64,000 nucleotides of DNA from Eledone cirrhosa (Eukaryota). The translations under genes were made by a program, and so were the position numbers. Below are positions 19,530 through 63,884 of the stretch, in pieces (the first letter of the stretch is position 1; every line of letters begins with the position of its first letter). The stretch spans positions 196,602,001-196,666,000 of the forward strand of contig OZ024741.1 in assembly GCA_964016885.1 (NCBI GenBank). The letters are read 5' to 3'. Under the pieces are notes generated by a model that was given only the letters and a program-made list of their open reading frames with translations, was not told where the DNA came from and did no database searches.

Positions 19530-19547
19530 TGGCGTCGCCGATAGGAT
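19530..19547 (+). promoter_or_regulatory. Primer binding site (probably tRNA-Ser type)
   Basis: TGGCGTCGCCGATAGGAT 8 nt after the 5' LTR; the tRNA identity is inferred. Confidence 0.75.
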
Positions 19548-19584
19548 TTACCTACATTGCCGGGAAATTGTTTATCATAAAAAC

Positions 19585-28200: not shown

Positions 28201-28295
28201 CTTCCAATGGCCAAGAGAGAGAGTCCATCACTCTTCATCTGAATGACTTTACGTCGGAGTGCTTCAATTACCTTGAAATGGGCCGACGTCTTGCC
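25270..28295 (-). pseudogene. Tc1 transposase relic, split by RTE 'C' and internally deleted
   Basis: N-terminal HTH region GKTSAHF...GREVSHS (28295-28184) continues as KCVIARIMKFHNET at 26009; the second catalytic Asp region appears deleted. Confidence 0.85.
26010..28179 (-). mobile_element. 5'-truncated RTE LINE 'C'
   Basis: (CAT)n tail from 26010, 3' UTR, RT ORFs with FVDLEKAFD, QGSVLSP, YADD. Confidence 0.93.
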
Positions 28296-28523
28296 AAGAG
28301 TTGATAGGAAAATAAAATATACTGGTAACATGACCCTGTTGACAAGTGTTGCCAGATATTTCTAGAAAATTCAGGAAATTACCCTAAAATATAAAAAATC
28401 ACTAGAGTGTTCTCTTATATTGATCACTGCATTTTTTTAAAATTAAAGGTATATCTTTAATATCGTTTTTATATTCTTGATTATTTAGAAAATATTTTAA
28501 CACAAAATAGATATATATATACT

Positions 28524-30710
28524 ATGATGGTGTACTTGCCATCACTGATGCTGATAAGAAGGTAGCTTGGAAGTGTCACTACGAGAGGCTACTAAATGAG
28601 GAGAATAAATGGGACAAAGATAGTCTTCCCCACATCGATCCAATAGAGGGACCAGCAGTGCAAGTTGAAGGTAGTATAAGTAAGGCAATCAAAGATATGA
28701 AGACAGGCAAGGCGGCTGGGCCTTCGGAAATAGTTGCTAAAATGCTGAAAGCATCTGGAACGGTGGGACACACTATGGTCACCCGGATAGTAAACCAAGT
28801 CATACAGAACGGGGTCATACCAAATGACTGGTCTAGCATCATCATCATTAACTGATACAAGGGTAAAAGAGATGCACTAGATAGAGGAAACTATAGAGGC
28901 ATTAAATTGATTGACCAGGTCATGAAGGTCACAGAAAAAGTTATAGTGCAACTAATCAGAGAGCAAATTGATCTAGACGAAATGCAGTTTGGGTTTATGT
29001 CAGGTAAAAGTACCACAGATGCCCTTTTCCTTGTACGACAACTACAGGAGAAGTACCTAGCTAAAAGTAAACCCCTATACTTAGCTTTTGTTAACTTGGA
29101 GAAAGCATTTGACAGAGTCCCCCGTGCCATTATCTGGTGGGCTCTTAGAAAACTAGGGGTTGATGAGTGGCTTGTGAGAGCTATACAAGCTATGTATAAA
29201 GAAACAGTCAGCAAGGTTAGAATTAATGAATATAGTGAAGTTTAGCATAAAAGTTGGTGTTCATCAGGGCTCTGTCCTTAGCCCCCTCCTATTTATTATT
29301 GCCCTTCAGGCTATAACAGAGGAGTTCAAGACTGGCTTCCCATGGGAACTTCTCTATGCAGATGATCTAAGGCTCATAGCTGAATCGATGGCTGAACTAG
29401 AGAAGAAATTCCAAACATGGAAGCATGGCCTAGAATCAAAAGGCCTTAAAGTTAACTTGTCTAAGACTAAAGTTCTAGTATGTAGGAAGGAAAATAGGGC
29501 ATAGGTGCCCTCTGGGAAATGGCCATGCTCAGTGTGTAAGAAAGGAGTAGGCAGAAATTCCATTTTATGTCCCAAATGCAAAGTATGGGTGCATAAAAGA
29601 TGAAGTGGGATCACAGGTAAGCTATCTAAGAACGTAGATTTTATATGTGGCCGGTGCTCAGGTGCAATAACTAGCAAGCGCCCACAGGATACTAGCTCCT
29701 TCTATTGCCCAGATGGCTCTATAGAAATAGTGGACACCTTCCGTTACCTGGGTGACAAAATCAGCAGTGGAGGAGGGTGTTCTGAAAGTACAGTAGCCAG
29801 AGTCAGAACGGGATGGAAAAAGTTCAGAGAGCTTATACCACTATTGGCCGCTAAAGTTTCTCTCTAAAAATGAAAGGCAGACTGTATGATGCCTGCATAC
29901 GAACAGCTATGTTACATGGCAGTGAGACATGGGCATTGTGTGCAGAGGATCTACGCAGACTGGAGAGGAAGAAGCATGCATGCTCCGCTGGATATGTAAT
30001 AGTAATATACGTGAACAGCAAAGCATAAAGGAACTAAGTGAGAAATTAGGTATAAGCGGGATCAGATGCTGTTTACTCGAGAGAAGACTACATTGGTATG
30101 GTCACATGATGCGCATGAAAGACGACAGCTGTATAAAAAAGTGCAGGGCGATCAAAATTGACAGAAGTTACGGAGTAGGTAGACCCAGAAAAACCTGAGA
30201 CGATTTGATCAATTCCGACCTTACACACTTCACCTCTCTAAGACAATGTCGCTGGACCGACATCTTTGGCGTTACGCAGTAATACAGAAGACCCGCCTTG
30301 CCTAAGTACAAAGCGAAACCTACAGTCAGTAGGCTCCTCTTAATCAAATATACACCCCCTCCCCTCCCACTACCCCAACTCCCCCACCCCCACCCACATC
30401 AACACCACCCCTTTCTCTGTAAAGTTATGTTGGTACCACAACATCCAGTCCTAAATAAATGAGGTCTTGTAGGTGTCACGACAAAAATAAAACACAGTCC
30501 ATGCTGTAATGTGGCCGTGTAGGTAACACGGTAAAAACCTCCCAGTCCACACTGTAAACGTGGTTGGGGTTAGGAACAGCATCCACTCGTAGAAAACCTG
30601 CCAGACAGTCCCATACGAGCGAGACGACCAATCTTGCCTCAAATGGGACAATTCCCGTCTAAACCCATGCTAGCGTGCAAGATAGACGTTAAACAATGAT
30701 GATGATGATG
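28524..30710 (+). mobile_element. 5'-truncated RTE LINE 'D', inserted in the Tc1 terminal repeat
   Basis: RT motifs, (ATG)n tail to 30710, ATACT on both flanks (28519-23, 30711-15). Confidence 0.93.
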
Positions 30711-31054
30711 ATACTGCAAATATTCTTTCAAATTTTAAAGGAAAAATGTTGTTAAATAAGAAAAATAATGAAAAGTTAATTTAGCGTTCTCTTATTTTGA
30801 TCACTACTAACTTTCGTAGCCAGTTCCTCTGTTGTGTCAACGTGAGGCAAACTGTCGTCATCACATTCATTGTCCTCATTTAATAGTCTTTTATAGTAGC
30901 ACTTCCATGCTACCTTCTTTTCAGCATCAATGAAGGCTAGTACTCCTTTATCATCGCAGACACATTTCTCACCAACAACATCACAATTTTCCTTGATACA
31001 TTGTCTCACAATCCTGAACACCTCACGCCTTTGGTCCTCGCATTGCAGAAAATA

Positions 31055-34765: not shown

Positions 34766-34913
34766 GTGTTAACTTTCTAAAATGAGGTATACTTTCTTTT
34801 CTAATGATTTTCAGTAATTTTTCTAACAGATATACGAAGAAATGATTTTAAAAATGATCTGTTTTCATTATTTTTAATATTTTTAATATTCCTTTTTATT
34901 TAATTTTTTTCAG

Positions 34914-37900
34914 AAGGAAACTTTAGGATCTACTGCTTTGGAGGCTAATAGGCTTAGTAATAATGGATCAAGCAATTCTCTAAGTTCTCAATATAAAAAC
35001 TTAAATTGTGAGTCAAATGAATTCAATGCTAAATCAAACCATTTACAAGCATATGACGAAAGTATGAGTCGTGTTGAAATGGATAATTATCCCCTAGAAA
35101 ACACAAGTTTTAATCACCCTATGTCTTTCAAACAAAATAAAGAGATTCATAAAAATTATAGTCAGAAAAGGCAGAAAACTTTAGAATTCCTTGAAAAGTT
35201 GCTGAAAAATTGTGACCCCGAAATAGAGGAACAACTAAAAAAGCTAGTCAAAGAGAAGTTTGGACCCCATTTGAAGAGTAGTCATCATAAAGAGGTTCTA
35301 TCATCTAACCAAACAGTCAATGATATTATGGAACTTCTGGAACAACAGAAAAGTGATTCTTTTGTATCTTGTAATTCTTCTAGACTGTCCTCTTTGTCAA
35401 GTCGAAGTAAAAACGATTGGCGTAAACAAAGAACTGATAACAATAGGAATTCGTTGAAATCTTCCAAGCCATTTCTTTCCAAAAACATGGTGACTAAAAG
35501 TATTCCTTCATTTGTTTTGAGTGGAACAAATACAGCTGAAGACTCAGATGAAGGTGTCTTTTTACTTGGAGACAACTGCTCAGAGAACAAGTTGGCAAGG
35601 CACAACAACGCTAGCAATATTTCTGAGATTAGATATCACAAAGATTCTCCTAATAGTCCTCAACATGACATGTGGGATACCATTCATCAAGTTCTTAATG
35701 AACAAAAATTAGAAGATCAATTTTGGCAAAAGGCAACATCCATAAAAAATAATTTTGAAACAAAATTCCCTAATCTTACAGACAAATCAAGCACAGAAGA
35801 TTCAACAATTAAAAATATACTGAAATCAATAGGATTTGATACAGAAATGTGTAAAAGAATGCAAGAATGTGCCAAGCAAGTGTCAGGTAAAAATGATCAA
35901 TTGAAGTGTCATAAAGATAAACATTTAACAAACAAATCTAAGCATAGTTTGTCTCCCGAAACAGATAAATCTGGGCTTAAAAGAGGGAAAAACAAAATTC
36001 TATCTTCTGAAAGGGCATACAATAAATCTCTTCCTAACAAGAATTTCATTGCAACTGTTCCTCCTATTGATACATCAGTTCCACCTCCTATTGCTAATTT
36101 CTCAAACACAATAACTCCCCCACCTTTAGCACCTCCTCCTCTACCAATGTTTCATGGTAGGCCACCTGTACATCCTGTGTTACCACCTGGTCTACCACCA
36201 CCACCACCTGTTGTCCCTGCCAATTATAACCATCTTCCACCTCAACCCACAATAGTTCCACCTTGTGGGCCATTCCTTCCTCAGCCCCAAACATCTAACA
36301 TTTTCCATCAACAGTACAATTTTAACAATATGTATGATAGGAATTCTTACTACAATACTTCAAGGTCCATTATTCCTACTTCTATACCACCTCCATCCCT
36401 TCATTCAAACTTAAAAGTTATACCACTCTCTTCAGTTCCTACATTAAATCATTCTATACCATCTGCCACAACTCCGTCATCATTACCTGGCTCTTCATTA
36501 TGTAGGGATAACTCACCCAACGTAGATAGCTGGCTGTCTAATAATGAAAGGCCTTCACAATGGAATTTACTTTCTCCTCCTCACAGAGACAGATCTCCCA
36601 TGTCATCAAGACAAGATCGGTCACTTACACCATGTTCATCAAGGCATGCATCTCACACATTAAGACGTGAAAGGTCTCAGGGCTGTAGCTCATCAAAGCG
36701 AGACAAGTCACGAAGCCCACCTTCTTCAAGGCGAGGTAGATCACGAACTCCTAGTTCTTCAAGGCGAGGTAGATCACGAACTCCTAGTTCTTCAAGGCAA
36801 GATAGGTCACGAACTCCTAGTTCTTCAAGGCGAGACAGGTCACGAGACAGATCACAGACACCATCAAAATCAAGACAAAAAAAATCACGAAATCAAAAGA
36901 GACGCGATAGATCTAGAACTCCTTATTCTTCGAGAAGAAGCCACTCAAGATCACCATGTTCTATGAAAAGAGATAGACCCAGATCTCCTGTTTCTAGGAG
37001 AAGTTCACGATATTCTAAATCTTCTTCCAGACACAGCCGATCACCAACTAAGCCAAGCAGATCTCGCACCAAAAGATCAAGGCTACTGCATCCTGTGGAT
37101 GAAAAATTTTCTTCAGAATACGAACATTCGCTATCTCCTCCAGCTCAAAGGAGAACTGGTTCTCCTGTACAGTGTAATGGCTCATCTGAAAGCAAAAATA
37201 ACAATGGCAGTTCACTGAAAGTGCAAGATGTAAAAGAAATTTTTGCCCTAAAATCTAAAAACTTGAATGCTTCTACAAACAACACTAACAGAAAGTATTC
37301 TTGTTTTCTACCACATGAAATTGAGCAGATAATAAGACAAAGGATTTTGTGCAGCAGTCGTCTTGAAACATTGCAAAATGAACTAGCAATGCTTCGCAAA
37401 CAGCAAAACGAATTGATGCGCAAAAAACAGCGTGAAAAAGATGGTCATAAAGATCCAATTTTGATTGAAAATGCTGCTTTACAGGAAGAAGTTAGCAATC
37501 AAGTTAAACTGCTGAAAAAGACTGTGGAAGAACTTACTGAAACTTTGGAAATATCGGGAATGTCTATGGAGTCTTTTACTTACCATGAAAAATTTTATCA
37601 GTACTCCAAAAAATCTTCTTTATCTGATCAATTTGGATTTAAAAGCAAAAGTCAGGAAAATAGAGATAATGATAAAAAAAGAAAGACAAATAAATTCCAT
37701 TCACACGGGTTTGACAAAACTGCTTCTATACAAAAAGAAATGTCTTGTGAACGATTCTCCTCTCGAGATAATGAACCTTTTCTCCCTTTAGAAATAAAAT
37801 CTTTTTCAAAAGAAAGGCAGCCCAGTGATAAAGGCAAGTTTGCATGGAATAAAAGAATGGATAATTGTCAGCTGTACGAGGACAAAGATAAGAAAACCTC

Positions 37901-37961
37901 CTCATTCCCTTTGAAATGGTCGTCTTCTGAAGACTTCTTGCATAATTTACATCAAAACAAG
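34914..37961 (+). CDS. ZNF318: ZNF318-like protein, large coding exon (Pro-rich, RS-rich, coiled-coil segments); upstream exon(s) not identified
   Basis: Polypyrimidine tract + CAG acceptor at 34911-34913 (phase 0), donor AAG|GTATT after 37961. Encodes ILKSIG and LRKQQNELMRKKQREKDGHKDP, which I recognise as ZNF318-family motifs. Confidence 0.9.
36708..36839 (+). repeat. Coding 33-nt tandem repeat x4 (SRTPSSSRRGR) in the RS region
   Basis: Unit tcacgaactcctagttcttcaaggcgaggtaga at 36708, 36741, 36774 and 36807. Confidence 0.95.
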
Positions 37962-38502
37962 GTATTGTGTTACATTTTAATAATTATTTATAAGTTTTCA
38001 TCAACTTAAAAAAAATATATATATATATGAGTTTTCCTTGTAAGTCTAAAAAATTTTTCTGCATTTGAGTTAGATATTTTCTGTATTTAGAGACAATGTA
38101 TCTTTTACGTGTGCACAGGTGTTTTGCTATTTTTTATGAAATACATTGCCTGTATGTTTCAATTGATTTTGAAAATAATGAAATAACTAATAACTAAGTT
38201 TTTCATTAATGATCTGATATTTAGAACATTAAAAAGAATTTCTAAAATAAAATTGGAATGAAAGGTTAGATAAGGATAAATATTTTAAAATGAGAAGTTT
38301 TGTATCATAAATCCAGGACAGTTTCAAGCAGTTTGGTATCAAATAGGTTAAACTGATTAATTTAAACTGGTATCTTCACTTTGGTTGTTATAATCAACAT
38401 TTTGGCCATTGTACTCTCCTGGGTCTAGAATGTCCATGGGTTACGGCTCTAGATTTATGCCTTAATTTTAGGTTGTCAATGTTTTGAGTAAAATTATTTT
38501 AA

Positions 38503-38838: not shown

Positions 38839-38994
38839 GAAAAGGCTGTTGACTGTGATGAGACCAGAACTAATAAAGCTGAAGTGAGTTATGAATATTT
38901 TGACCCTGGAAATCATTGGTGTCGCCATTGTAATTTAGTAACTGGAAACATCTATGAACTATTTCAGCATCTTCAGTCAAAAAAGCATAAAGCG
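38839..38994 (+). CDS. ZNF318: ZNF318-like exon, first matrin-type C2H2 zinc finger
   Basis: TAG acceptor, GCG|GTATGT donor, 156 nt, phase 0-0; encodes YEYFDPGNHWCRHC...HLQSKKH. Confidence 0.93.
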
Positions 38995-42266: not shown

Positions 42267-42363
42267 AAACTTGATCACTATGACCGTCCTTGGTTACCTG
42301 AATCTATAAAGAATCCTAGTAATAAACCAAAGATGGGACAGGTTCAAATGGCACCTATTAAAG
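42267..42363 (+). CDS. ZNF318: ZNF318-like inter-finger linker exon (absent from ORF track)
   Basis: CAG acceptor, AAAG|GTATTT donor, 97 nt, phase 0-1; translates KLDHYDRPWLPESIKNPSNKPKMGQVQMAPIKG, resembling the ZNF318 LDPYNRPW...PAKG linker. Confidence 0.9.
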
Positions 42364-43736: not shown

Positions 43737-43855
43737 GTGTGGAATTCCTCATGTCAACACATGCTTTTTATTGCACTTTGTGTAAAGAATTTTCTGGTGA
43801 TGTTCTCTGTGCTGAAGCTCATTTAAAAAGTGACAGCCATAATGCAACATATCAG
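43737..43855 (+). CDS. ZNF318: ZNF318-like exon, second matrin-type zinc finger
   Basis: CAG acceptor, CAG|GTTTG donor, 119 nt, phase 1-0; GVEFLMSTHAFYCTLCKEFSGDVLCAEAHLKSDSHNATYQ. Confidence 0.92.
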
Positions 43856-47122: not shown

Positions 47123-48562
47123 AAACACATTGAAGAAAATCCATATTATGAAAAACGGTTAAATCTTGATAAAGCAGCCGGTCTTCAGTTTTTCACTTCA
47201 GACAAAGGAGAAAAGAGGAAAAATAATGAAGACAGTGATAATGAAGAAAAGAAGGATAGCTTAAAAAAACCTCAACATGACTCTAAAGAAAGGTTTTCAG
47301 AAGATAATAAAGAGAGAGAAGTCTTGTCAAAGGATTTGATGAAAGATATAAAGACAGACTCTAAAAAGTCAACTGAAATTTCTCATGAAGAAATTCAAAG
47401 TGAAAAATCTGAAAATAGAAGCAATAAAAATGCTGAGGTGTCTCCAAATTCTGAAGATAAACAAAATGGGACAAAAGCAACAGTTTTAGAGGAAAATTCT
47501 GTAAAAGACAAGATTTTGGATCAAGTAAAACCAACTGTCCAAAGGTCAAAAATTGCAATTAAACTTACTGGTAAAACAGGAATAAAACCTCTTCAATATC
47601 CAGTTTTGCCCCCTTCAATACCTGTTGGTAAAATGCCTGGTCGACATAAAAAGCGGATTGCTAAAGCAAGTATTGGTAAGAAAGTCTGGCCAACGAAAGA
47701 AATTGAAAACCAATTATCTCTTGATGATTTCCTGACCTGTTCAAACAACAATGGTAGTGTCCCAGTTGTTTCAGATATAGAAACTGGTATAGAAAAAACT
47801 GATTTTAAAATAACTAATGTGGACACTTCTAGACAATCAAGTGATATTTCAAGTCCACAAGAATATGTTGGTAACATTGAAAGTATAGAAACTTCTCAGA
47901 AACTCTTGCCTGAATCCCACATCTCTACAACAACAACAATTGCCCCTGTTTCCCAAATATCTGGTAGCTGCCTTCTCCCGATTAATGTTTTAGCAGCACC
48001 ACCTCCCCCACCTCCCCCAGAAAGTACATGTAAGAATTCCAATAATTTGGATAGTAAAAGCTCAGATTTGTGTAGTTTTCCTGTAGTTGATCAAAGGAAA
48101 ATGAATACAGGTGAATTGAATAAAGAGAGTGAAACTAAAGGCATTTCTGAAAATATAAATGGAGCAAGGACTTTATTGAACCATGAAAGTGGAACACTAA
48201 CACCAATATCTACTAGTGTCAGTATGAAATCTGAAGAGTTTTCAGCAGAAGATCTTGATGATATGAGACTCTTGGGTATTGATCCTGCTTCTCAGGTTCC
48301 TATGGCAGAAGTACGGCCACCACCATCGCTTCTCTCTTTAACAGCACATAACATGACTAATGAAGGTCATGAAATTAAGTGTAAACCAACCAAAGACAAA
48401 AGTTATCTGGGCAGTAGCTATAATATTTCTATTGTAGATAATAATAGTATTGTACATGAAAAAGATAGAAAACAATCAGAAGCTAAGACAGTTTCTGTTT
48501 CTTTTGATGAAAACAAAGAGCAATCTCCTGAGGAATTGTTTCAACATGGTCCAGAGACTAGG
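47123..48562 (+). CDS. ZNF318: ZNF318-like exon after the zinc fingers (duplicated exon, copy 1)
   Basis: TTTTTCAG acceptor, AGG|GTATGT donor, 1440 nt, phase 0-0; begins KHIEENPYYEKRLNLDKAAGL, the conserved post-finger motif. Confidence 0.88.
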
Positions 48563-48793
48563 GTATGTAATATTATTTGATTTGTTTCTACCGGGTGTTA
48601 ATATTTATGACAAAAGAGCTAAGTGAGAGTGTATATCACGTTTCAATATTACTGAACAACTGAGGTAATTGTCAAATGTAAAGTTGTTATTGTTTAGCCT
48701 CATATCAGCCCTGATCAAAGTCGTTCTAACCATGGCCATGCCATCTTTTTGTATATTAGGATCCATATTGTTCAATATGTGCTTTCTTTTTAA

Positions 48794-49049
48794 CCCTTTC
48801 ATTACCATATTTCTAATGAAATACACTACCTCTGTGTTTCAATTAATTTTGAAAATAATTTTTTTTAAATTGGAGGAATTTGATAAAATAATTACATTTT
48901 TCATTTAGTAAATTGATATTTAGGTCATTAAGAAAAATTTATGAAATAAAATTTTGAAGAAAGAATTTAATATGAAGATAAACATTTTAAAATGAGCAGT
49001 TTTGTATCATAAATCCAGGACAGTTTTGGGTGGTTTGGTATGAAATGGG
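48794..49049. mobile_element. piggyBac-type MITE inserted in another short repeat (~48690-49135; relatives at ~860-1055 and ~31985-32170)
   Basis: TTAA TSD on both sides, TIR CCCTTTCATTACCA / TGGTATGAAATGGG. Confidence 0.85.
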
Positions 49050-49214
49050 TTAAAACAGTAGGATGTAATCTGAGTGAGATTTGGCTGTTATTTCTAGTAA
49101 GTTGATCAACAACTTAGAGGCTCCCTCATTAACTCAGTGGATGTGTATGTCAACTATGGGGAATCTGAATGTATATAGCAACTGATTTTGTTGTGGCAAA
49201 GTGTAAAGAAAATG

Positions 49215-49628
49215 TGATTAATACTGAATGACACACTAGCAGTAGATACAGAGGATATGTGATGGCTGGAGAGAAATAAAGCGAGCATGCTCCATTGGAT
49301 GTGCAATGTTAATGTGGGTAGGAATGACAAAGCATGGATTAGCTGAGAGAAATACTGAGTATAGGAGGAATTAGATGTAATGTGTAAGAAAGAAGACTAC
49401 ACTAGATTGGACATATGATACATATGGATGATGATTGTTGGGTAAAGAAGTACCTAGAAATCCTACTGGAAGTTAAGGGCAGAGGTGGTGAGAGCTGATC
49501 TCAAATCACTGAAGCTCACAGAGGATATGACAAAAGAATGTAACAAATGAAAGGATGTTGTGCTGGAAAAGACACATCCAATCCATATAAGCATAGAAAT
49601 GTGGATGTACAATGGTGGTTATGATGAC
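49215..49628 (+). mobile_element. Old RTE 3' fragment
   Basis: Decayed LERNEASMLRWMCNV region and ATG-type tail. Confidence 0.8.
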
Positions 49629-50084
49629 ATAATCATCAAGTGAAAGCTTACACCAACTGTAATAGTGGATTGGAAAGAAACTGATAACAGCTGAGTTATT
49701 GTAATTATGTTGTTTATGATTTTATTACAACAGAAACACAGTTAATTTTCTCTTGCTGACATCATAGCATGTTCCAAAATCTATGATCTAAATTGTTATA
49801 TATCATCATCATCTCTGTTTAACATCTATCTTTCATGCTTGCATGCATTAGATAGGCTAGACTAGCCAAGTAACTACCTCTTGCTCATATACACAGTTTT
49901 TAATTTGGTTTTTATGGCTGAATTCCCTTCCTAACACTAACCACTTTACAGCATTTACTGGAAGCATTTTATGACTCCAATATTTCCACCTTACAGAGTG
50001 GACTAGCTGCTTTTTGACATGGCTCTAACATTACTACCTTACAGTATGAACTATTAAATATATCAACAGTTTGACTTATCTCTG

Positions 50085-52615
50085 TATTACCAGTTGTTTC
50101 AAGATGTAAAACATGTCTATCACATCAGATGCTTTCAAGAATAAGCAGCAAATAGAATGGAGTTTAGGTGCATGCTGATAAAGGTTTCCATTGGTTGGTT
50201 CAGGTCAGTTGGTGGTGTCAATATGTCAGTGACAGCAGTATGGTGAGAGAACATGGGATAGATTGTGCATAGGTGTCTCCATTAATTTTGTTAGAATTCA
50301 GTGACATTAAATGTATGTTTATGGTCACCCTGGTGGTATGATTGAGTTTGGCAGCTCTGGGTTGAATATTTAATTAATATATGTAATTACTTTTTGGTAG
50401 GTTTTTTGTTGGTGTTTTCAGGGTGTGTGTGTGTTGGTTTAAGGGTGGAAGCTGTCGGCTTCACACATGAGCTGGATGGAGCTAAGGTGACCTTTGTGCA
50501 ATGTCTGGGGCCAGTGGTTTGAAGTCGGCTAACAGGATGCTTGTCCAATGGAAGCAAAATGTTAAGTCAGTTTTCCTGCTGATGGATAACATAGGTATAT
50601 GCAATCTTTTGTAGAGGTAGAATTGACAATTATAGACCCTAGGCTAATATGAGAATCTCTGTTCAGAATGTTACATTTAATGTAGGAATGTTATGCCCTT
50701 GTTCACTGTGCCTCTATGTGAAACGTGACAGTGAGATGAAGTTCAACCTGTTTTTTGCACCTAAAGGAGTGTGCATGCTGTGTAAATCTACCCCATTGAT
50801 TGTTAGGTCCATATAGTTCCTCTGGAAGCCATCTGCTTGTGTGAAGGTAGCTCTATAGACCATAACCTTTGAGAAGTAGGATACAACCAGAGGACAGTTG
50901 GTAGGGTTTTGGCAATTGCAGATTGGTGTGTGTGCTTTTTTTCTGTTATAATATTTGAACTGATGCTATCTAAACAGGATCAGCTAACCATAATATTGGT
51001 GTAAGATCTTGTGGTACTTAAGGGTGTATGGGAAGTGTTTTCGTACTAGAAACAAGAAGTTCTGAATTATATTTGTTGATATGTCTTTCTCTTAACATGT
51101 ATATATATATTTTTCTATGAATTCACTTCGTTATTACCTTATTATGATGGAGTTCAACCATGTCAAAGCGCTGTCTGTTGGATGATAAGCTAGAGGTTTT
51201 TCTACTAGTCCTCTTTACAAAGTTTCTAACTTTAACTGGGGTGGGGTTCTTTAAATACACCTCATTAGGCTTCCTATAGGGGTAGTGCTTACGAGTTTTG
51301 AGGTTCAGAGTGATGTTCAGAATGTAAACTTTGACTAAGTTGGTGGTAACTGTGATGTTTAGGCTGAACTTATTCATAGCATGTCCCTTCATATGGCTTG
51401 AGCTTGCTAGGCCATTGTCTCAATGCTGACCATGGGGATGTGTTACTTTCTTGAGTATCAAGGAACAATAAACTGAAAAAGTCAGTTACATCAACCCTGC
51501 TGTATGACCCTATTGATATGTTGAACAGTAAATCCCCTGTTGGACCCAGTATGAATTGTCAAGAAAAAATAACTTCTAGCATTCAGAATTATTCTGATAT
51601 CTATGTTGCTGATCTTAGTGAATTGTTTACCAAAATCTAGGGTTTCAGTAGGTGGTGTTTTGATATGGAATGATAAAAGCCTATGATGTTGAACTGGATG
51701 AATCTGCAGGATGCATTATTTTCAATATTGCAAAACCAGATGACAGCATTGCTGGAGTCCCAAGGACTAGGCCAGTCACTCTTCTGATTTCAGAGTTGAT
51801 ACCACTGAGGATTTGCTTACTAATTCTGTCTAATCCACTCTTACAGAGTTTAATCACCCTGTACTTAGGGTTGAGGAGAAAGTTTGGTTTGTGATCCTAA
51901 TGAGTGACATAGGGGGTAGGTGTGTGGTGAGGCACTCCACACAGTCTTTTACCTGAAAGAGAGAGGTTCCTTTGCTTTGGTGTTTATGTCATTGTATGTT
52001 GTGGTGTGTGTTTTCTTGTATATATTAGTGATGGTGTTAGTCAAGAATTTGTTGTGAGTGGTGGTTTTTGTTTCATAGATGTTCTTTGCCATGTCAGCAA
52101 GAGTGTGTACATTTTTGGATTATTTGAGGCATGTAGTGTAATTGTTTAAGGAGTTTAAAAAAAGGGATTAGAATGTTGTTGCAAACTTATCTTTTTAATG
52201 AGGTTCATCAAGTCTGCTTGGAAACTTCCAAGGTCCTTAATCTGAGGCAGACATTTCCATGATTTGAGATCATACATTTGCAGATGTGTTGGTAGTTGAG
52301 TTCTTGAAAAAATAGGCCTTCCAGCACACATGCTTCATCAGTCTTCCTGCTCTATCCTTTCCTTGGTGTATAAGTATGTTATTTAGTGAATACTGAAGTA
52401 GTTGTCTCTCCATCTCAGACTGTTGGATCTTCGTCTATAGGTAGTGCTTGATAATGGTTGGAGAAGTTTTACATGTGTGGGTATAAATGAAAGAAAAGAG
52501 CAATCAACGCCTAATATAGAGTTGAGAGTATTCATGTTAAGTTTGACCTACCTCCACGTTGCCAGTGTTTTCATGATGTAGACATGTCTATCTCATCAGA
52601 TGCTTTAGAGAATGG
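50085..52615 (-). mobile_element. Degenerate Penelope-like element flanked by pLTR-like direct repeats
   Basis: HYPYRKPN and related RT relics; ~50-nt direct repeat at 50092-50142 and 52563-52613. Confidence 0.7.
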
Positions 52616-52801
52616 GAGAGCATGCCTCAGTGTACAGTGGATTGAAAAATAATGAAAATTGCTTCTCTTTCTCTCTATATTATGATTGATATAGTACTTC
52701 TGTAATCTACTCTCAGAGTATTTTATACTGAGAAAATTAATACTCTTTGAAAAATGGTATTTTACATTTGAAATGAATTTATGTTGTTTCTATACATGGT
52801 A

Positions 52802-52843
<42 letters not shown>

Positions 52844-52935
52844 GTAAAAAATTGAACGGGAACAAAACAGAGAGGCAGTACGAACAAAGGTTTATTAGTT
52901 TCACGCTCTTGAGAGTGGGGTGGTGGTGGTGGGGA

Positions 52936-52967
52936 ACGACGTTTCGGGCATAAGCCCTTCTTCAGGT
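52936..52967 (-). ncRNA. Minimal type I hammerhead ribozyme motif (Penelope-type)
   Basis: Minus strand AC-CUGAAGA-A-GGGC(UUAU)GCCC-GAAAC-GUC-GU; core intact, stem I only 2 bp. Confidence 0.7.
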
Positions 52968-53167
52968 GAAAAGTGTGTGGGAAGAGAGTTCCAAGGGTGT
53001 GTAGGGAAGTGGTGGAGAGACATACAGAAAAAAAGGGGGTGAGAGGAAACAGTACAAATGAAATTAAATATAAAAGCATAATAAAAATAAAAATAAACAT
53101 GAGGTAAAACAGATATATATATATATATATATAGATATATAGATATATATACATACATACACATACA

Positions 53168-54655
53168 CATCATCATCGTTTTTATGTTCGTTTTTCCATG
53201 CTTGCATGGGTTGGATGGGTCCTTTTCAGCACAGCATCTCTCCATTTGCCACATTCCTCTGTCATCTCCTTTGATGGTCAGCTCTCACAACCTCTGCCTA
53301 GGTTTTTCTTGGTCCACCTCTACTGCGGCTTCCTTCATCTGGGATTTCTTGCTATTTTATCACTCATCAATTTTTCATCCATTCACATCACACGTCTGTA
53401 CCAATGCAGTCTACTCTCCTACACGCCACTTTGGATTCCTCTTAAACCCAGTTTCTCCCTCGGTTCATCGAAGCTCTGCTTTTCTCTCACATTTACATTG
53501 TACATCCAATGGAGCATTGGTTGCTTCATTTCTCTCCAGCCTATGCATGTCCTCTGCAGTCACAGCCCATGTTTCACTACCATGTAGCATCACACTCCAC
53601 ACACGGGTGTCATACAGCCTTGCTTTTGTTGTCAAATTTCCGTATTTGGAACTTATTCTCTAGTTCTTTTATGGATACACCTATAAGGATCAGATCATCC
53701 ACATAGAGAAGTTCCTATGGAAAGCCAGTCTTAAACTCCTCTGTAATGGTGTGGAGAACTATGATGAATAGCAGTGGGCTAAGAACCTATCCCTGATGAA
53801 CTCCTACCTTAAATTCCTCACTAAATTCACTTCCTACTCTCACTTTACTGATAGCTCCTCTGTACATGGCTTGTACCTCTCTCACAAGCCATTCTTTTTC
53901 ACCTAATTTCTTTAAGGACCATCAGATAATAGATTGAGGTACTCTGCCAAAGGTCTTTTCCAGATCAACAGAAGCTAAATATTGCAGCTTATTCTTGGCT
54001 AGGAACTTCTCTTGTAGTTGCCTCACTAAAAAGAGTGTGTTTGTAGTACTTTTTCCAGGCATGAACAAAATTGCATCTCATCTAATTTGACTCTTTCCCA
54101 AAGTAGCTGCGCTATAACTCTTTCTGTCAATTTCATAACTTGGTCTATTAGTTATATTCCTCTATAGTTGCTCCTTTCTAGAGCATCACCTTTACCCTTG
54201 TAGCAATTTATGATTGTACTGCTGCACCAGTCATTGGGTATGACATTGTCCTGTATTGCCTGATTGACTATGCAGGTTATTAGTTCGACTCCTACCTCTT
54301 CCGATGCTTATAGTATCTCAGCAACCATCTCTCATAGTCATGCAACTTTACCACTCTTCATCTTTTGATTGCTTCTTTGACTTTATAACTGTATTTTCTT
54401 TTCCTCCCATTCATTCTCTACATTCATCAGTCTCTCATAGTAACATTTCTAGGCATCTTTCTTTTGAGCATCAGTGGTGCTAAGTGTGGCAGTGTCATTT
54501 GTAATACACTTTTCCCTAACAACATCCCAATTCACACTGATACACAATGCAGAACACTTCACATCTTTGATCCTCATGCCTGAAGACTGGCAAACTTTCT
54601 TTTTTCAGCCTCTCTCCGAGCTGTGTATAGCTGTCATCTAGCTTCTTTCTTAGCA
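53168..54655 (-). mobile_element. Degenerate RTE LINE, 5'-truncated and internally deleted
   Basis: (CAT)n tail and RT-region nucleotide similarity to 17100-19050. Confidence 0.88.
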
Positions 54656-54793
54656 TACATATGTATGTATGTGTATATATATACACACACACACATATAT
54701 AACCATTTTTTCTTTGTTAGAAAGTATTGTTACATTATCTTAGATAATACTTATTTTTTAGCATTACTATAATTTCTCTGTTGTGTTTTTCAG

Positions 54794-57700
54794 CAACACA
54801 TTCTTGAAGAGGAATCAAGGCATATTGAAGCAGATGACCAGTGTTTTACTTCTGACAAAGGAGAAAATATGGAAAGTCAGGAAGACAGTGATTATGAAGA
54901 AAAGAAGGATATCTTTAAGAAAGTTCAACATGACTCTAAAGAAAGGTTTTCAGAAGATAATAAGGAAAGAGAAGTCTTGTCAAAGGATTTGATGAAAGAT
55001 ATAAAGACAGACTCTAAAAGGTCAACTGAAATTTTTAATGAAGAAATTCAAAGTGAAAAATCTGAAAATAGAAGCAATAAAAATGCTGAGGTGTCTCCAA
55101 ATTCTGAAGATGAACAAAATGGGACAAAAGCAACAGTTTTAGAGGAAAATTCTGTAAAAGACAAGATCCTTGATCAAACAAAGCCAACTGTCCAAAGGTC
55201 AAAAATTAAAATTAAACTTACTGGTAAAACAGGAATAAAACCTATTCAATCTCCTGTTTTATCACCTTGGATACCTGCTAGTAAAATGTCTGGTCTAAAT
55301 AAAGGTCCACCTGCTAAAACAGATTCTGATAAGAAAGTATGTCTAACGAAGGAAATTGAAAACCAATTATCTCTTGATGATTTCCTGACCTGTTCAAACA
55401 ACAATGGTAGTGTCCCAGTTGTTTCAGATATAGAAACTGGTATAGAACAAATTGATTTTAAAATAACTAATGTGGACACTTCTAGACAATCAAGTGATAT
55501 TTCAAGTCCACAAGAATATGTTGGTAACATTGAAAGTATAGAAACTTCTCAGAAACTCTTGCCTGAATCCCACATCTCTACAACAACAACAATTGCCCCT
55601 GTTTCCCAAATATCTGGTAGCTGCCTTCTCCCGATTAATGTTTTAACAGCACCACCCCTTCCTTCTCCTCCAGGTAATACTTGTAAAAATTCCAATGTGC
55701 TTGAGTTTACTGATAGATCTATTAAGTGTGAATTTTCTATAGTTGACCATAGATCAATTCCTGTGGATGAAACTGAAGGCATTTCTGAAAATAAAAATGT
55801 AGCAAAGGCTTTGTTGAACCAACAAGGTGATACACGTATGCCATTGTCTACTGTTCTTGATACCAAATCTGAAGAGTTTTCAACAGAAGATCTTAATAAG
55901 TTAAAACTTCCAGGTATTGATCCTACCTCTCCAGTTCCTTTGGCCGAATTAAAGCTTCCACCTCCAATTTCTTCTGCTGTTTTTCAGATTGCTGACACTA
56001 ACAATGAAAGTTCATGTCAGACTAATAAAGACAAAAACAACACTTTGCACCCTTCTGTCACTCTTGGAGTAAATCCGAGCAATGAAAATCCCTCTGATGT
56101 CCAAGAGACATCTTTGCTTGTAAACAAAGAACAATTCTCAGAAATAAGCAATGATAATGTTTCTGATTCTACCACAAACAATGCATCTATTTTATTTGAT
56201 GAATTAAATTCTAAAGTTTGTTATAGCATCTCTACTTTATCTTCTCAATTACCAGATGCTGGTAATGCTCTTTATAGGAATGTAAAATTTCCAACTTTAT
56301 CCAACAAACTCCTGTTGTCTGATAACTTTGAACTGCCAACAATAAATTCTGTTATGGAGGCAACATCATCAAATCTTTGTACAATCAACTCCGAGAAAAT
56401 GGAACCTGATTATTCTACTGTCTCTTCAAAATCAGATGCAGAGAGCAATTGTTTAGAAAACAAAGACAGGTGTAGTTTGGAAACATTGTTAGGCAATGGA
56501 GCAAGATCTGATTTGAGAACAGTTGATTCCAGTACAGTTAAGCAAAATATTTCTTTGATTCCTTTACCAGCCACTTTGAACAGTTCTTTAGCTAATATTT
56601 GGGATATTCCTCTCTCTTCTAATCTACAGTCTCACTGTCAGCCCCCACCCCACAATGAAGTAATACGGGAATCAGAACATAATTATGCTATCAGACTTAT
56701 GGAAAATTCAGATGGTGTTATGCATCCTGTGAAAAGAGTGCCATTAGAACATGATGATGGAGATAATGTTGATAGTGATGACAGCAACAATATCAATAAT
56801 AACAGCTGGAAAACACAGTCTTTTATGGCCCAATCATATATATCACATAGGCAGTCTGATGATGAGGAAGAGACAAGTGAACTGAGTATGTCATCAGAAA
56901 ATGACTCTAACAATTCCCTTCCTCAACAGTGTTCTCAATCTTCAGAGAGTAATGATACAATTTCTCCACCAGTTCTTGTAGCAGAAGGAAGGCAAAACTG
57001 TGCAAATCCAAATGAAGATTTAGGCAACAATGATTCTCCTCCACCTTTAACTGCAGAAGTACCTTGTATTTCACCCAATGTCTCACTTCCATGTTCCACA
57101 TCATCTGTGATACCTGTAACTTTGATTTACACTCCAACTTGTGACAGTAAAACTTTACTAACTACACCAAACACTTTGTCTATTGACAGTACATCAGTGG
57201 TGAATAACATGTCAATCCTTAACTTAGATTCAGTTATTAAGAATCAGGCTAACTCCATCAATCACACACCTAACACCTCTACAGCTAATGACAGGAATGT
57301 GAAAAATATAAAAAAGGTACTTCTTTTAAAAAAAACTGCGCAAAATACTTCTCGTTATTTACGTACATCCCGAAAATCCTCTCGAACAAAACAAAACGAA
57401 GTGAAACTTTTAAATGTAGATAAGGAAGAACCAGAAAAAATCATTGTAAAAGTCACATCCCGCACATCAGAAGGTGTACCTGTGATAAGCTTGACACCAG
57501 CTACATCAACAGCAAGCTATACCACATTAGATCTCTCATCATCATCAGTTGCGACTACTTCATCTTCTGGTTCAAACTTTACTGAAATCTCTGAAACTGA
57601 GTCTGCAGACAACTCGTTACTAGAGGCAGCTGCGAAGAAGGCAGAAACATTGCCAAAAATGTTCATGCCTAAAGTAGTTCTTCATGATATTAAACACACA

Positions 57701-58186
57701 ATGGGTAAAGATTTGTCTCCAATGACATCTATTCCTTCATCTATAGAGAACATTCCAATCTTTGATTCTGAAAATGATGATTCTGACTCGGACATTAAAT
57801 TTGAATCACCAAAGAAGTCATGTGATTCACAACGCCATCTTGATATTGAATCGCCTTCCAAGTCTACAGAGGCATTTGATCCATACATGTTTCTGAACAG
57901 ACCTACAAAACCTATACCGTCCTCAAGCTGTAGTACGCAATTGACAAATGAGAGCTCTACTTTATTTAGTATAGGCCCTGGTGGTACTAGTGCTACTGGC
58001 CGAGTGACTGCAGATTCACTTCCATCTATTGAACACCAATCGATGGTAAGCAGCATGTTTGATGTAACTGATTGTAAGTTTGCTTTTCCTGAGGTTTTCT
58101 TGGAGAATGGTGAGCCTGAAACACCTCTGAAAATGTCCAATGCTGATGTACTAGGCCCTGGACTTGGTTTTCTTGGAGAATGGTGA
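54794..58186 (+). CDS. ZNF318: ZNF318-like terminal coding exon (5' part is duplicated exon copy 2), low-complexity tail
   Basis: TTTTTCAG acceptor ending at 54793, in frame with the 1105-aa ORF; about the first 1.2 kb is paralogous to 47123-48330; TGA at 58184-58186. Confidence 0.8.
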   Translation, partial: QHILEEESRHIEADDQCFTSDKGENMESQEDSDYEEKKDIFKKVQHDSKERFSEDNKEREVLSKDLMKDIKTDSKRSTEIFNEEIQSEKSENRSNKNAEVSPNSEDEQNGTKATVLEENSVKDKILDQTKPTVQRSKIKIKLTGKTGIKPIQSPVLSPWIPASKMSGLNKGPPAKTDSDKKVCLTKEIENQLSLDDFLTCSNNNGSVPVVSDIETGIEQIDFKITNVDTSRQSSDISSPQEYVGNIESIETSQKLLPESHISTTTTIAPVSQISGSCLLPINVLTAPPLPSPPGNTCKNSNVLEFTDRSIKCEFSIVDHRSIPVDETEGISENKNVAKALLNQQGDTRMPLSTVLDTKSEEFSTEDLNKLKLPGIDPTSPVPLAELKLPPPISSAVFQIADTNNESSCQTNKDKNNTLHPSVTLGVNPSNENPSDVQETSLLVNKEQFSEISNDNVSDSTTNNASILFDELNSKVCYSISTLSSQLPDAGNALYRNVKFPTLSNKLLLSDNFELPTINSVMEATSSNLCTINSEKMEPDYSTVSSKSDAESNCLENKDRCSLETLLGNGARSDLRTVDSSTVKQNISLIPLPATLNSSLANIWDIPLSSNLQSHCQPPPHNEVIRESEHNYAIRLMENSDGVMHPVKRVPLEHDDGDNVDSDDSNNINNNSWKTQSFMAQSYISHRQSDDEEETSELSMSSENDSNNSLPQQCSQSSESNDTISPPVLVAEGRQNCANPNEDLGNNDSPPPLTAEVPCISPNVSLPCSTSSVIPVTLIYTPTCDSKTLLTTPNTLSIDSTSVVNNMSILNLDSVIKNQANSINHTPNTSTANDRNVKNIKKVLLLKKTAQNTSRYLRTSRKSSRTKQNEVKLLNVDKEEPEKIIVKVTSRTSEGVPVISLTPATSTASYTTLDLSSSSVATTSSSGSNFTEISETESADNSLLEAAAKKAETLPKMFMPKVVLHDIKHTMGKDLSPMTSIPSSIENIPIFDSENDDSDSDIKFESPKKSCDSQRHLDIESPSKSTEAFDPYMFLNRPTKPIPSSSCSTQLTNESSTLFSIGPGGTSATGRVTADSLPSIEHQSMVSSMFDVTDCKFAFPEVFLENGEPETPLKMSNADVLGPGLGFLGEW

Positions 58187-60134
58187 GCTTGGAACAGTTC
58201 TGAAAATGTCCAATGCTGATGTACTAGGCCCTGGACTTCCATTTGAAGCATCTAGTAAAACCAAATTGCTCTTGGTTTGGATATCTTAAATGAATTTTAT
58301 ACAGCTGGGTTGACTGAAGATTTAGGTTAATATTCTAATCATTGATTAAAGTTTTTCTCTTAACACATTTCTATAAGTCTATTATAACCTCTTGCAACAG
58401 ATGGCATATCAGATACAAATAATTTTTACATAAAGTTTCTTTTTGTTTCCCTTTTTCTTGTCTCTCTTTTAATGTTGTTAATCATCATCATCATCATTGT
58501 CATTCTAAATATTTTGTTCATTCTATCTAGCTAGGATCATCAGATTTCTTTAGGAAAATATTTTTGTTAGAAATATGTAAGCAAACTATTCTTCAGTTCT
58601 AGATTGTATTGTACTTGTGAATTATTCACATTTTTTTCTGTTTTCTGGCAGAAAATACTACTCCTTTTAACACTGATTAACTTGCTCAAGCCTACATTTC
58701 TTTTAGCAATTTCAAACCCTTGCATACAGGAAATAAGTTTTGTGATCCTTTGTTATTTGGGAATAGGGAAGACATTCCTGAAATATTTATGCTTCACTGG
58801 GATTAAGCTGTTGGCATTTGGGTTTTTTTTTTTTTTAGTTTAGTGTGTAATTAGCTGATGGATATTTTGATCATTTGGTAAGAGATTGCCAATTAATTTT
58901 GTTTACTTTACTCATTAAGTAAAAAAGTAAAAAAATATATTTATGAGTAACTTGTTAGTAAAGTTTTATAGACAAAGCCAGGAATTCATTGTAGGTTGTT
59001 ATTGTTTGAAAGGCAGGTTATATAAAAGAAAAAAGGAAATCTTACTGGGGAGGCAATGAATTCCTGATAACTATAGCCTCTTAGTTTATTGATTGGTATT
59101 AACTACAAATATAATCCCTTTGTGTGTTTTTAGGTTAACACTTAACTCATATTATTGTTTGCTAGTTATTGACGCTTCTTAGAAAGATAATATTTTTTCC
59201 TGGTTAATATTTCATGGGGGCATGATTAGAAAAAGGGAGCAATAGTATATATATTTCTCCAAATGACTCGAGTTATAATAAATAATCACTTTTTCAAGGT
59301 TGAAAGTTATTTTCTGAATATTGGGGTAATTACATGGGTAACTTTTTGAAATTATGTTTCATGAAGCTCCTTGTTAAATAATTATCCAGCACTCCTTTTG
59401 TTCTTGGGTTTCTCCTATTTGTTCTGTCACCTAATTCAACCTATTCACCACATGCAGAGGTTTTAACAGATGTCCATACAAATGCTCTCAATATACTCAT
59501 AAAAGTTCAACTTTTTTTGAGGTTGTTTTATTTGGAAGTGTATCTATTACAGTCATCAATAACTGATTATCTTAAACTCTAAAATAGGACTGGGATGCAG
59601 ATTTCAAACACCTTAACAAATTAGCAATCATTTTGTCATTGTCAAAAATTGTGGCAATATTCTATTGAAATGAAATTTTTTTTTTTTTTTCACCAAAAAC
59701 ATAATAGCCAACAAAACATGAGTTGGATTTCCCATTGAGAAAACTGGGAAGATAATTATTTGAAGAAAGAAATAAAATAAAAACTAATGATGCAACTTTC
59801 TAACTACAAAAAATTATATGTATATACACTGAAAATATAGATATTTTTTTGTCTGTACAAAACTGAGGAATTAAAAGCAATCACAAAATGAACATCTTTA
59901 ACTATTTATGTTGCTTTTTGTTTTCTATTTTTTTTAGCATTAATGTTTATTTTTTCCAATTATTACGTTTTGACTTAAAAACTTTACCCATTTTCTTATT
60001 ATCTGCAGTCTCATTTAAAAATATTAAAAAAAAATTAAAAGCAGAACAAGCAATTATTCTTTACATACTCATTGAAATATGGATTAAACCAAAGTAACTT
60101 GTGCTGTTTTGTATGAGTCTTTCATTACTGAATT

Positions 60135-63112: not shown

Positions 63113-63545
63113 ATGCTTACCTACTACGAGACACTGAGCTGGATGAAGACAATGTTTTATAGATTTTATAAATATCTCTTTCACTCATATATATATTAAT
63201 TCAAGTATCATCATCATCATCATTTTACGTCCGCTTTTCCCTGCTTGCAAGGGTGGTTAATTACCAACACTTCAGTATGCAGGGTAGAGCATTCAACGAA
63301 GTGCACAGTTGGGTCTGTTTACTCCAGAGTATATTTATAAACAAGAAGTGTAAATCAACAGGTTAAAATTAACTTTGTTTATTCATAGTTGCTGTTATAT
63401 ATATATTTCAGAGAAATCAAAAATAACATAGCGGTGGAATAAAGCTTCTGTATTTCGATTTTTTTATATGCTCGGTGCTGAAATTTGGTGTTGTTTTCTC
63501 AAGGCATATATATATATATATATATTGTATATATTGTTTATATTT

Positions 63546-63884
63546 GGAGGCACATGGCTTAGTGGTTAGAGCATTGGCCTTGCAATCGAAAGGTTGTGAG
63601 TTCAATTCTCAGACCGGGTGATGTGTTGTTTCCTTGAGCAAGACACTTTATTTCACATTGCTCCAGTTTACTCAGCTGTAGAAATGAGATGATAGGGACT
63701 AGGGTCCATATCATTCCACTGCAAAGTGGTCGTGGAGGTGCCACGGAAAAAAAGCACCCAGCACTCACTGTAAATGAGGTTGGTGTTAGGAAGGGCATCC
63801 AGCTGTAGAAATCAAGCCAGAATCAGTTCCCGTCCCACCCTTGCAAGCAGGGAAAAGTGGACGTAAAATGATGATGATGATGAT
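63546..63884 (+). mobile_element. SINE family 1, second copy
   Basis: Collinear with 14610-14954 with few substitutions. Confidence 0.9.

What the first reader, a model, noticed from the sequence alone, without database searches (positions are those of the whole stretch)
47123..55990. Intragenic exon duplication in ZNF318-like gene with a sharp identity mosaic (gene conversion?)
Exons 47123-48562 and 54794+ are paralogous at a constant 7653-nt offset. Manual counts: 47699-48003 vs 55352-55656 differ at only 3 sites, all amino-acid changing. 47273-47590 vs 54926-55243 differ at about 14. The segment between these blocks and the segment after 48003 are far more diverged, roughly half of residues after 48003. 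One duplication event should give uniform divergence, so near-identity including synonymous sites suggests an older duplication with recent conversion tracts (inference). Copy 2 has lost the conserved ENPYYEKRLNLDKAAGL motif.
Basis: partly seen in the sequence, partly recalled or inferred. Interest (0 to 1): 0.75.

Follow-up and report, generated by a model that had tools for sequence, protein, structure and literature searches.

The report
Octopod ZNF318 exon copies overwriting each other
An old duplicated exon inside an octopus-type ZNF318 zinc-finger gene has two patches that are almost letter-identical between the copies although they differ between species, most likely because one copy was recently overwritten by the other (gene conversion); this is a clean new example of a well-known process.

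Summary
In detail: 14 of 318 and 3 of 305 differences, around an island with 30 of 108. The 7653 offset holds only for about 47186-48039.

The gene is a ZNF318 homologue of an octopod. The duplication is old: Argonauta hians has both copies, and other octopods have copy-1 or copy-2 types. One run's contig joins copy 1 to copy 2 exactly, so the copies are spliced in tandem.

In the two patches the copies are 94-97% identical in protein, but only 59-67% identical to their orthologues. Orthology trees are rejected there (AU p=5e-6) and preferred in the island. A relative about 6% diverged has its own shared letters in both copies, so the younger tract postdates that split. Assembly collapse and purifying selection are rejected.

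Whether selection guards the island is open; tests chosen without hindsight were not significant. The lost motif is the tail of the zinc-finger module, out of context in copy 2.

This is a known process. The scan noted similar mosaics in other genomes, none on this DNA.

The parts
34914..37961 (+). Large upstream coding exon of the ZNF318-like gene (Pro-rich, RS-rich, coiled-coil-like part); exons further 5' were not mapped
   Evidence: ORF 34887-38009; matches to Argonauta P0009 and Lingula ZNF318 P0158; boundaries read from AG/GT
38839..38994 (+). Exon with the first zinc finger (HWCxxC...H...H)
   Evidence: tblastn and splice sites; joined frame open
42267..42363 (+). Linker exon (DRPW motif)
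43737..43855 (+). Exon with the second zinc finger; ends in phase 0
47123..48562 (+). Copy 1: internal exon of 1440 nt, phase 0-0, with a GTATGT donor at 48563
   Evidence: X2 contig of 761 nt joins 47963-48561 to 54793-54954 with 0 differences
47123..47185 (+). Head of copy 1 (KHIEENPYYEKRLNLDKAAGL): continuation of the zinc-finger module; degenerate in copy 2
   Evidence: among 61 of 61 aligned homologues the motif's second Y and the next E stand in 59 each, L in 53, P in 50; 20 of 21 residues identical to P0008
47273..47590 (+). Homogenised block 1 (pairs with 54926-55243); likely the older conversion or several short tracts
   Evidence: 14 of 318 differences, dS 0.084, identical runs of 52, 74 and 55 nt; not different from the divergence to organism B (p=0.26)
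47591..47698 (+). Unconverted island (pairs with 55244-55351); copy 1 reads VLPPSIPVGKMPGR, copy 2 reads VLSPW
   Evidence: 30 of 108 differences, dS 0.35, dN 0.35; orthology tree best, three conversion trees rejected
47699..48003 (+). Homogenised block 2 (pairs with 55352-55656); contains the 193-nt identical run 47800-47992; likely the youngest tract
48004..48230 (+). Diverged segment with indels; history unresolved
   Evidence: 34 of 70 residues identical between copies; no topology rejected
48231..48345 (+). EDLDDMRLLGIDP...PPP motif, conserved in copy 1 and eroded in copy 2
   Evidence: 38 of 38 identical to P0008, 20 of 37 to copy 2
48563..54793 (+). Intron between the copies (6231 nt, with LINE-like remnants and microsatellites); no homology to the intron before copy 1 beyond the acceptor
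54794..58186 (+). Copy 2 plus the ancestral 3' tail: last coding exon, phase 0, stop at 58184-58186
54926..55243 (+). Copy-2 side of block 1
55244..55351 (+). Copy-2 side of the island; S-P-W in this genome, P0001, P0002 and Argonauta copy 2
55352..55656 (+). Copy-2 side of block 2

Best explanation
The 5' part of the last large exon of an octopod ZNF318 gene is present twice, both copies are spliced in tandem in one run's contigs, and two patches were most likely overwritten copy-to-copy by non-allelic gene conversion long after the duplication. Steps: (1) Shown: two copies here and in Argonauta; one copy in unnamed cephalopod-like relatives. Inferred: a tandem duplication before this lineage, Octopus and Argonauta separated; copy 1 came to end at a donor at 48563 and became an internal phase 0-0 exon. 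(2) Shown: a copy 1 to copy 2 splice junction. Inferred: a longer, largely disordered tail with two sets of the short conserved motifs KIxIKLTGK and LSLDDFL. (3) Shown: the patches group by species, the rest by copy. Inferred: repair of DNA breaks using the neighbouring copy 7.65 kb away as template, in several tracts of different age; the tract over 47800-47992 is younger than the split from organism B. (4) Inferred, weaker: the head, island and EDLDD motif stay copy-specific because overwriting copy 1 there would be selected against, and because accumulated mismatches and indels now stop tracts. (5) Inferred: the copy-2 head decayed because it no longer follows the finger exon.
For: Clustering of differences. 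Paralogue protein identity 100/106 and 99/102 against orthologue identity 67/106 and 65/98 (copy 1 vs P0008) and 70/105 and 59/100 (copy 2 vs O. sinensis P0001). Quartet sites, species: orthologue: cross pairing, 13:0:1 and 10:0:0 in the blocks against 0:5:1 (island), 0:3:0 (EDLDD) and 0:6:0 (tail). AU tests: orthology rejected in block 1 (p=0.0005), block 2 (0.005) and both (5e-6); in the island orthology is best and three conversion trees are rejected (0.007, 0.007, 0.0008). Organism B (run X5, another study): paired contigs over 55180-55422 differ from copy 2 at 37 and 16 of 243 letters, so it has both copies and the island. At 8 substitutions and one 3-nt deletion where both window copies agree, the whole double depth of B (24-29 against 14-16 single) shows another letter; 5 substitutions and the deletion lie in both separately assembled B contigs. 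B is 5.6-8.3% diverged in these exons and 6.3-6.8% in two intron pieces, so the blocks evolve about neutrally. A run of 193 identical letters anywhere in 854 has p=7e-4 at 5.5% divergence and 8e-5 at 6.5%. Splice junction. Age: Argonauta P0009 holds both copies, only 27% identical in the same blocks.
Against: Direction of conversion is not resolved: three conversion topologies fit equally, and the window matches copy-1 and copy-2 orthologues at 18 and 25 sites. P0008 is from an unnamed species, so conversion within the Octopus lineage was not tested. The B data are contigs, with 40 of 67 difference rows and 16 of 23 pieces shown; merged contigs can hide variants, and no B contig for the head of copy 2 was listed. 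Step 4 is weak: paralogue identity does not correlate with copy-1 conservation over 27 windows (rho -0.15, p=0.47); all unconverted segments together are not more conserved than the blocks (145/200 vs 132/204, p=0.11); the p=3e-7 for three motifs was chosen with hindsight. The island has dN equal to dS, and segment 48004-48230 is neither conserved nor recently converted. Selection on copy 1 alone would not stop copy 1 overwriting copy 2. Block 1 (4.4%) cannot be dated after the split from B (p=0.26). A double unequal crossover would leave the same sequence.
Confidence: 0.9

Rival explanations
1. Assembly or polishing artefact: reads of one copy overwrote the other in the assembly.
For: The blocks are 96-99% identical, and runs X1, X2 and X4 belong to one study that may be the source of the assembly.
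Against: Short-read contigs separate the copies in the island (168-nt contigs with 30 and 1 differences from copy 2) and merge them in the blocks (294 nt with 0 differences), as expected if the identity is in the molecules. Organism B, from another study, shows the same merged and separate layout.
Confidence: 0.02
2. Strong purifying selection, including on synonymous sites, keeps the blocks alike in both copies without exchange.
For: Two conserved motifs lie inside the blocks (KIxIKLTGK; LSLDDFL, with LDxFL also seen in shark-type ZNF318 homologues).
Against: The blocks are only 59-67% identical to orthologous proteins and differ from organism B about as much as introns do.
Confidence: 0.02
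3. A recent duplication followed by fast local divergence under positive selection.
For: The three block-2 differences all change amino acids, and orthologues carry the copy-1 residue at all three.
Against: Synonymous sites are as diverged as non-synonymous ones in the island and after 48003. Copy-specific residues are shared with Octopus and Argonauta. The introns do not align.
Confidence: 0.02
4. Exchange by another route than DNA-templated conversion: double unequal crossover, or repair templated by an RNA or cDNA copy of the gene.
For: The homogenised sequence is all exonic, and the window is rich in LINE-like reverse-transcriptase remnants.
Against: Introns share no homology, so exon-only tracts are expected under any route. 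Single unequal crossovers would change copy number; this genome, B and Argonauta each show two copies. No tract runs across a splice junction.
Confidence: 0.06

Closest known systems
Peak of divergence between duplicates under gene conversion: human red/green opsins (Fawcett and Innan 2011, PMC3924837; 8 passages read)
   Same: Segments that group by species alternate with a segment that groups by copy; old duplicate; tandem arrangement.
   Different: Here both copies are exons of one gene and one polypeptide. The homogenised parts are coding and fast-evolving rather than intronic. No functional site is known in the island, and dN equals dS there.
GOT1p1/GOT1p2 of the copepod Tigriopus californicus (PMC3728101; abstract read)
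   Same: Mosaic of high and low divergence between invertebrate paralogues under ongoing conversion.
   Different: Separate enzyme genes with population data; here an intragenic pair in a disordered tail.
Long-lasting segmental concerted evolution of BMP8A/B, DDX19A/B, TUBG1/2 (PMC2720389; abstract read)
   Same: Exactly two old copies in each species, homogenised only in specific segments.
   Different: Those pairs convert in all lineages examined and keep intron similarity; here Argonauta's copies have escaped (27% identical) and introns do not align.
Intragenic homogenisation in spider MaSp silk genes (PMC9779670; 12 of 13 passages read)
   Same: Exchange between repeated exonic units of one gene.
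   Different: Many short structural repeats with homogenised introns; here two large units with sharp copy-specific islands.
Dscam duplicated exon arrays (PMC3236188; 8 passages read)
   Same: Tandemly duplicated exons within one invertebrate gene.
   Different: Mutually exclusive splicing and no conversion detected; here tandem inclusion and clear conversion.
ZNF318 / TZF (10.1101/2022.04.07.487460; 7 passages read)
   Same: Two central matrin-type fingers and a long Pro-rich C-terminal half with no ascribed function and many substitutions between orthologues.
   Different: The octopod tail carries an internal duplication of about 400 residues; none of that size was found in homologues P0010-P0070 (61 proteins).

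Membership tests
ZNF318 family | Two tandem matrin/U1-type C2H2 fingers in mid-protein | tested here: met
   Two CxxC...H...H fingers in exons 38839-38994 and 43737-43855; Atlas neighbours of the same module in relative P0003 carry zf-met/zf-C2H2_jaz; Pfam hits stayed below cut-off
ZNF318 family | Best homologues are annotated ZNF318 | tested here: met
   Search with the finger module of relative P0003; 9 of 10 hits looked up (of 150 listed) have a cluster member named ZNF318 or ZNF318-like, 1 uncharacterized; Lingula ZNF318 maps to the window exons in order
ZNF318 family | One-to-one orthology by reciprocal search or synteny | not tested
   No reciprocal search or synteny comparison was run
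ZNF318 family | RNA binding, androgen-receptor or HUSH interaction | not testable with these tools
   Vertebrate data only
Non-allelic gene conversion (concerted evolution) | Significant clustering of identity along the alignment (Sawyer-type test) | tested here: met
   Own permutation test, not GENECONV; p=5e-5
Non-allelic gene conversion (concerted evolution) | Duplication older than speciation, yet paralogues closer than orthologues in the tract | tested here: met
Non-allelic gene conversion (concerted evolution) | Similarity not explained by purifying selection | tested here: met
   Orthologue identity 59-67%; divergence to B like introns
Non-allelic gene conversion (concerted evolution) | Non-reciprocal transfer with a known donor | tested here: inconclusive
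   Three directions fit equally; 18 vs 25 sites
Non-allelic gene conversion (concerted evolution) | Shared polymorphism between copies within the species | not testable with these tools
   Only contigs were laid; one hint at 55020-55037 in X2
Selected peak of divergence (opsin type) | Copy-specific residues fixed across species inside the peak | tested here: met
   S-P-W in 4 of 4 copy-2 sequences; P-[ST]-I-x-V-G-K-M-P-G-R in 3 of 3 copy-1 sequences
Selected peak of divergence (opsin type) | Peak too high or too old for neutral termination of conversion | tested here: inconclusive
   dN equals dS; window correlation p=0.47; an unconserved segment is also unconverted
Mutually exclusive duplicated exons (Dscam type) | Copies are used alternately, not together | tested here: not met
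   A contig joins copy 1 to copy 2 directly

The most novel reading that the evidence does not exclude
The two modules of one ZNF318 polypeptide have split their jobs, and selection holds the 108-nt island against conversion in both directions: copy 1 keeps the IPVGKMPGR motif, and copy 2 keeps a tryptophan (SPW) that gastropod ZNF318 also has at this place (PPW in Haliotis and Babylonia). Conversion is still going on, with a tract near 55020-55037 possibly segregating in this species, while Argonauta has escaped. The conversion map would then point to the binding motifs in the otherwise unassigned disordered tail of ZNF318.
Probability: 0.25. Interest if true: 0.5.

Novelty: new member of a known kind. 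Interest (0 to 1): 0.3.

Why it matters
The process is textbook, so a specialist would find the case tidy rather than surprising. It has three modest uses. (1) It is an intragenic case with a dated series: escaped in Argonauta, homogenised here, one tract younger than a 6% species split. (2) The motifs that stay fixed name candidate functional sites in the C-terminal half of ZNF318, which has no ascribed function. (3) It warns that near-identity would date this duplication far too young, and that short-read assemblies merge these blocks. The O. sinensis models begin at copy 2 as a separate uncharacterized gene, which may be a split annotation.

Tried and rejected
Pfam scans of the window exons and of P0009/P0003 gave nothing above a curated cut-off. 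The look-up of sequencing runs: no RNA holder listed. X2 is of unrecorded kind; I treat it as RNA-like only because its contigs join exon ends across introns. The first read-laying run (20 kb) was swamped by repeats, and only its pieces table was usable. No contig showed the finger exon joined directly to copy 2; that form would be in frame, but contigs drop rare forms, so this is no evidence of absence. A search for full-length proteins of 1979-5000 aa returned 1 protein, so no single Octopus record with both copies was obtained. Direction of conversion was tried by site counts and trees without result. GC content is the same in both copies within the blocks, so nothing could be said on GC bias. 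The idea that conversion simply avoids conserved sequence failed both tests made without hindsight. The trees included gap-rich Argonauta insertion columns; one search dropped those columns and the two single-copy relatives. Literature: 'ZNF318' with 'octopus' gave 0 papers; 'octopus', 'gene conversion', 'tandem duplication', 'exon' gave 7 and 'intragenic', 'exon duplication', 'gene conversion', 'cephalopod' (3 of 4) gave 9, none on this gene by title or abstract start. Subscription journals and supplements were not searched. No structure or complex was predicted, since the region is disorder-rich (about 70% polar, charged or Pro residues).
Full report
Observation. Self-comparison of the window finds one exonic repeat, 47186-48324 against 54839-55962, at 85% identity. 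A genome search finds only these two places in G000, 3.0 Gb. The 7653 offset applies from about 47186 to 48039; the exon starts are 7671 apart. dS by block is 0.27, 0.08, 0.35, 0.01 and 0.50 (the one synonymous count in block 2 comes from a codon that straddles 48004). The longest identical run is 193 nt, against a maximum of 127 in 20,000 codon permutations.

The gene. Upstream exons encode two C2H2 fingers, and the joined frame from 38839 to the stop at 58186 is open. A search with the finger module of a relative found 364 proteins at E up to 0.001. Of 10 looked up, 9 have a member named ZNF318 or ZNF318-like. The nearest named proteins are from Octopus sinensis and Argonauta hians, so I infer an octopod. 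The motif that copy 2 lacks continues straight from the second finger exon and is conserved across 61 aligned homologues. It is therefore the end of the finger module. Copy 2 follows copy 1, not the finger exon, which I infer left its head free to decay.

Splicing. In run X2 (kind not on record) a 761-nt contig lies with letters 1-599 on 47963-48561 and 600-761 on 54793-54954, without differences. The G at 48562 equals the G at 54793, so the joint is 48562|54794. In X4 the same exon end runs on into the intron. A second X2 contig starts to fit at 47119, as expected from four letters shared with the end of the finger exon. The copies are thus included in tandem at least in this sample. A full-length transcript was not seen.

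Age. Argonauta P0009 carries both copies in one predicted protein. P0008 (unnamed) is a copy-1 type; P0001 (O. sinensis) and P0002 (unnamed) are copy-2 types. P0003 and P0004 (unnamed, cephalopod-like by sequence; I take them for squid or cuttlefish without proof) have one copy, with copy-1 motifs followed by the tail. The duplication therefore predates the separation of this lineage from Octopus and Argonauta, and covers the 5' ~400 codons of the ancestral last exon.

Mosaic history. In the two blocks the window's copies share 100/106 and 99/102 residues, but each shares only 59-67% with its orthologues. Quartet sites pair by species 23 times and by copy 0 times in the blocks. Elsewhere they pair by species 4 times (all in 48004-48230) and by copy 17 times. 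With seven sequences, the orthology tree is rejected for the blocks (AU p=5e-6). It is the best tree for the island, where three conversion trees are rejected. For 48004-48230 nothing is rejected. Argonauta's copies are only 27% identical in the same blocks, so that lineage shows no recent exchange.

Timing. Organism B (run X5) differs from the window by 8-9 of 143, 16 of 243 and 39 of 470 letters in copy-2 exon pieces, and by 26 of 381 and 38 of about 600 in two intron pieces. It has both copies and the island. Among the 40 of 67 rows shown, of which I entered 20, 8 substitutions and one 3-nt deletion are carried by all of B's double depth where both window copies agree on another letter. One conversion after the split, in either species, explains such sites. 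The 193-nt run requires it in this lineage: p=7e-4 allowing for any position in 854 nt. Block 2 is more alike than block 1 (p=0.012). Block 1 is indistinguishable from the species divergence (p=0.26), so it may be as old as the split. At 55020, 55035 and 55037 both B contigs carry the copy-1 letters, while P0008 and P0001 partly support the copy-2 residues as older. This hints at a copy 1 to copy 2 event in B. X2's merged contig also shows copy-1 letters there, which may be a segregating tract or an effect of contig building.

Mechanism. The best reading is repeated non-allelic gene conversion between exon copies 7.65 kb apart. Assembly collapse, purifying selection and a young duplication each fail a direct test (see rivals). 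Why the island survives is less clear. For selection: the head, island and EDLDD motif of copy 1 are 95%, 81% and 100% identical to P0008, against 63-66% in the blocks; S-P-W marks all four copy-2 sequences; two gastropod homologues have P-P-W there. Against: the window correlation is not significant (p=0.47); all unconverted segments together are not more conserved (p=0.11); dN equals dS in the island; the copy-2 island is no more conserved than its flanks (21/36); and a poorly conserved segment is also unconverted. I put selection on the island at about even odds for copy 1 and lower for both copies. That mismatches and indels stop conversion tracts is recalled knowledge, consistent with the passages on divergence-dependent rates.

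Comparison and verdict. The pattern matches the opsin peak of divergence (PMC3924837, passages), Tigriopus GOT1 (PMC3728101, abstract) and old mammalian pairs (PMC2720389, abstract). Intragenic homogenisation is known from spider silk genes (PMC9779670, passages). It is not a Dscam-type alternative array (PMC3236188, passages). My searches found no paper on this gene in octopods (open-access library only). The scan holds no note on this DNA and six notes on similar mosaics in other genomes, which I did not check. Verdict: real, well supported, a new member of a known kind; interest 0.3.

Noticed in passing
window 58093-58238 (+): A 73-nt tandem duplication (4 differences) shifts the frame and ends the protein at 58184-58186. 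About 30 C-terminal residues conserved in O. sinensis, Argonauta and the single-copy relatives (PFETSSKSNIALGLD...) are lost; their remnant has a further frame break. Contigs of X1 and X2 break at 58155 and 58209, exactly as the repeat predicts, so it is in the reads.
   Followed up: partly
P0009 (Argonauta), about residues 1165-1305 and 2515-2620: Copy 1 holds its own ~23-residue tandem repeat (LTTCSxSxVPVISDE..., about 7 units) starting at the LSLDDFLT motif. A second short repeat lies near the C-terminus and a 10-residue repeat at the N-terminus.
   Followed up: no
P0001, P0005, P0006 (O. sinensis LOC115217644): Three isoforms start with three different short first exons spliced onto the copy-2 exon; two of them look transposase-derived (recalled resemblance, not tested). 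Either a split annotation or separate starts inside the intron.
   Followed up: no
window 55020-55037 and 55326: X2's merged contig has copy-1 letters at three sites and copy-2 letters elsewhere; 55326 varies between runs. Possible segregating tract and polymorphism, or contig artefact.
   Followed up: partly
P0021 (unnamed homologue), residues about 1240 and 1405: The DLxMLGID...PPP motif occurs twice, a possible independent doubling of one of the same motifs.
   Followed up: no
window 47993-48019 and 55646-55672: The 3' edge of block 2 falls in a C-rich poly-proline tract whose other strand is G-rich; a possible tract boundary.
   Followed up: no
window 19435-23769 (+): Interrupted Ty3/gypsy-like gag-pol reading frames, flanked by a direct repeat 19244-19521 / 23804-24080 at 96% that looks like an LTR pair (label recalled).
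   Followed up: no
window 5400-8500, 16200-19200, 24200-30800, 53100-54650: Many decayed RTE-like LINE copies, and ~190-nt SINE-like repeats at 15655, 31353, 32443, 40001, 40994, 41912, 62523 (labels recalled).
   Followed up: no
window 12820-13188 (+): Short frame resembling a Helitron Rep-helicase fragment (recalled resemblance).
   Followed up: no
window 14605-14948 and 63541-63884: A 344-nt repeat at 97% identity, 48.9 kb apart, probably a young mobile element.
   Followed up: no
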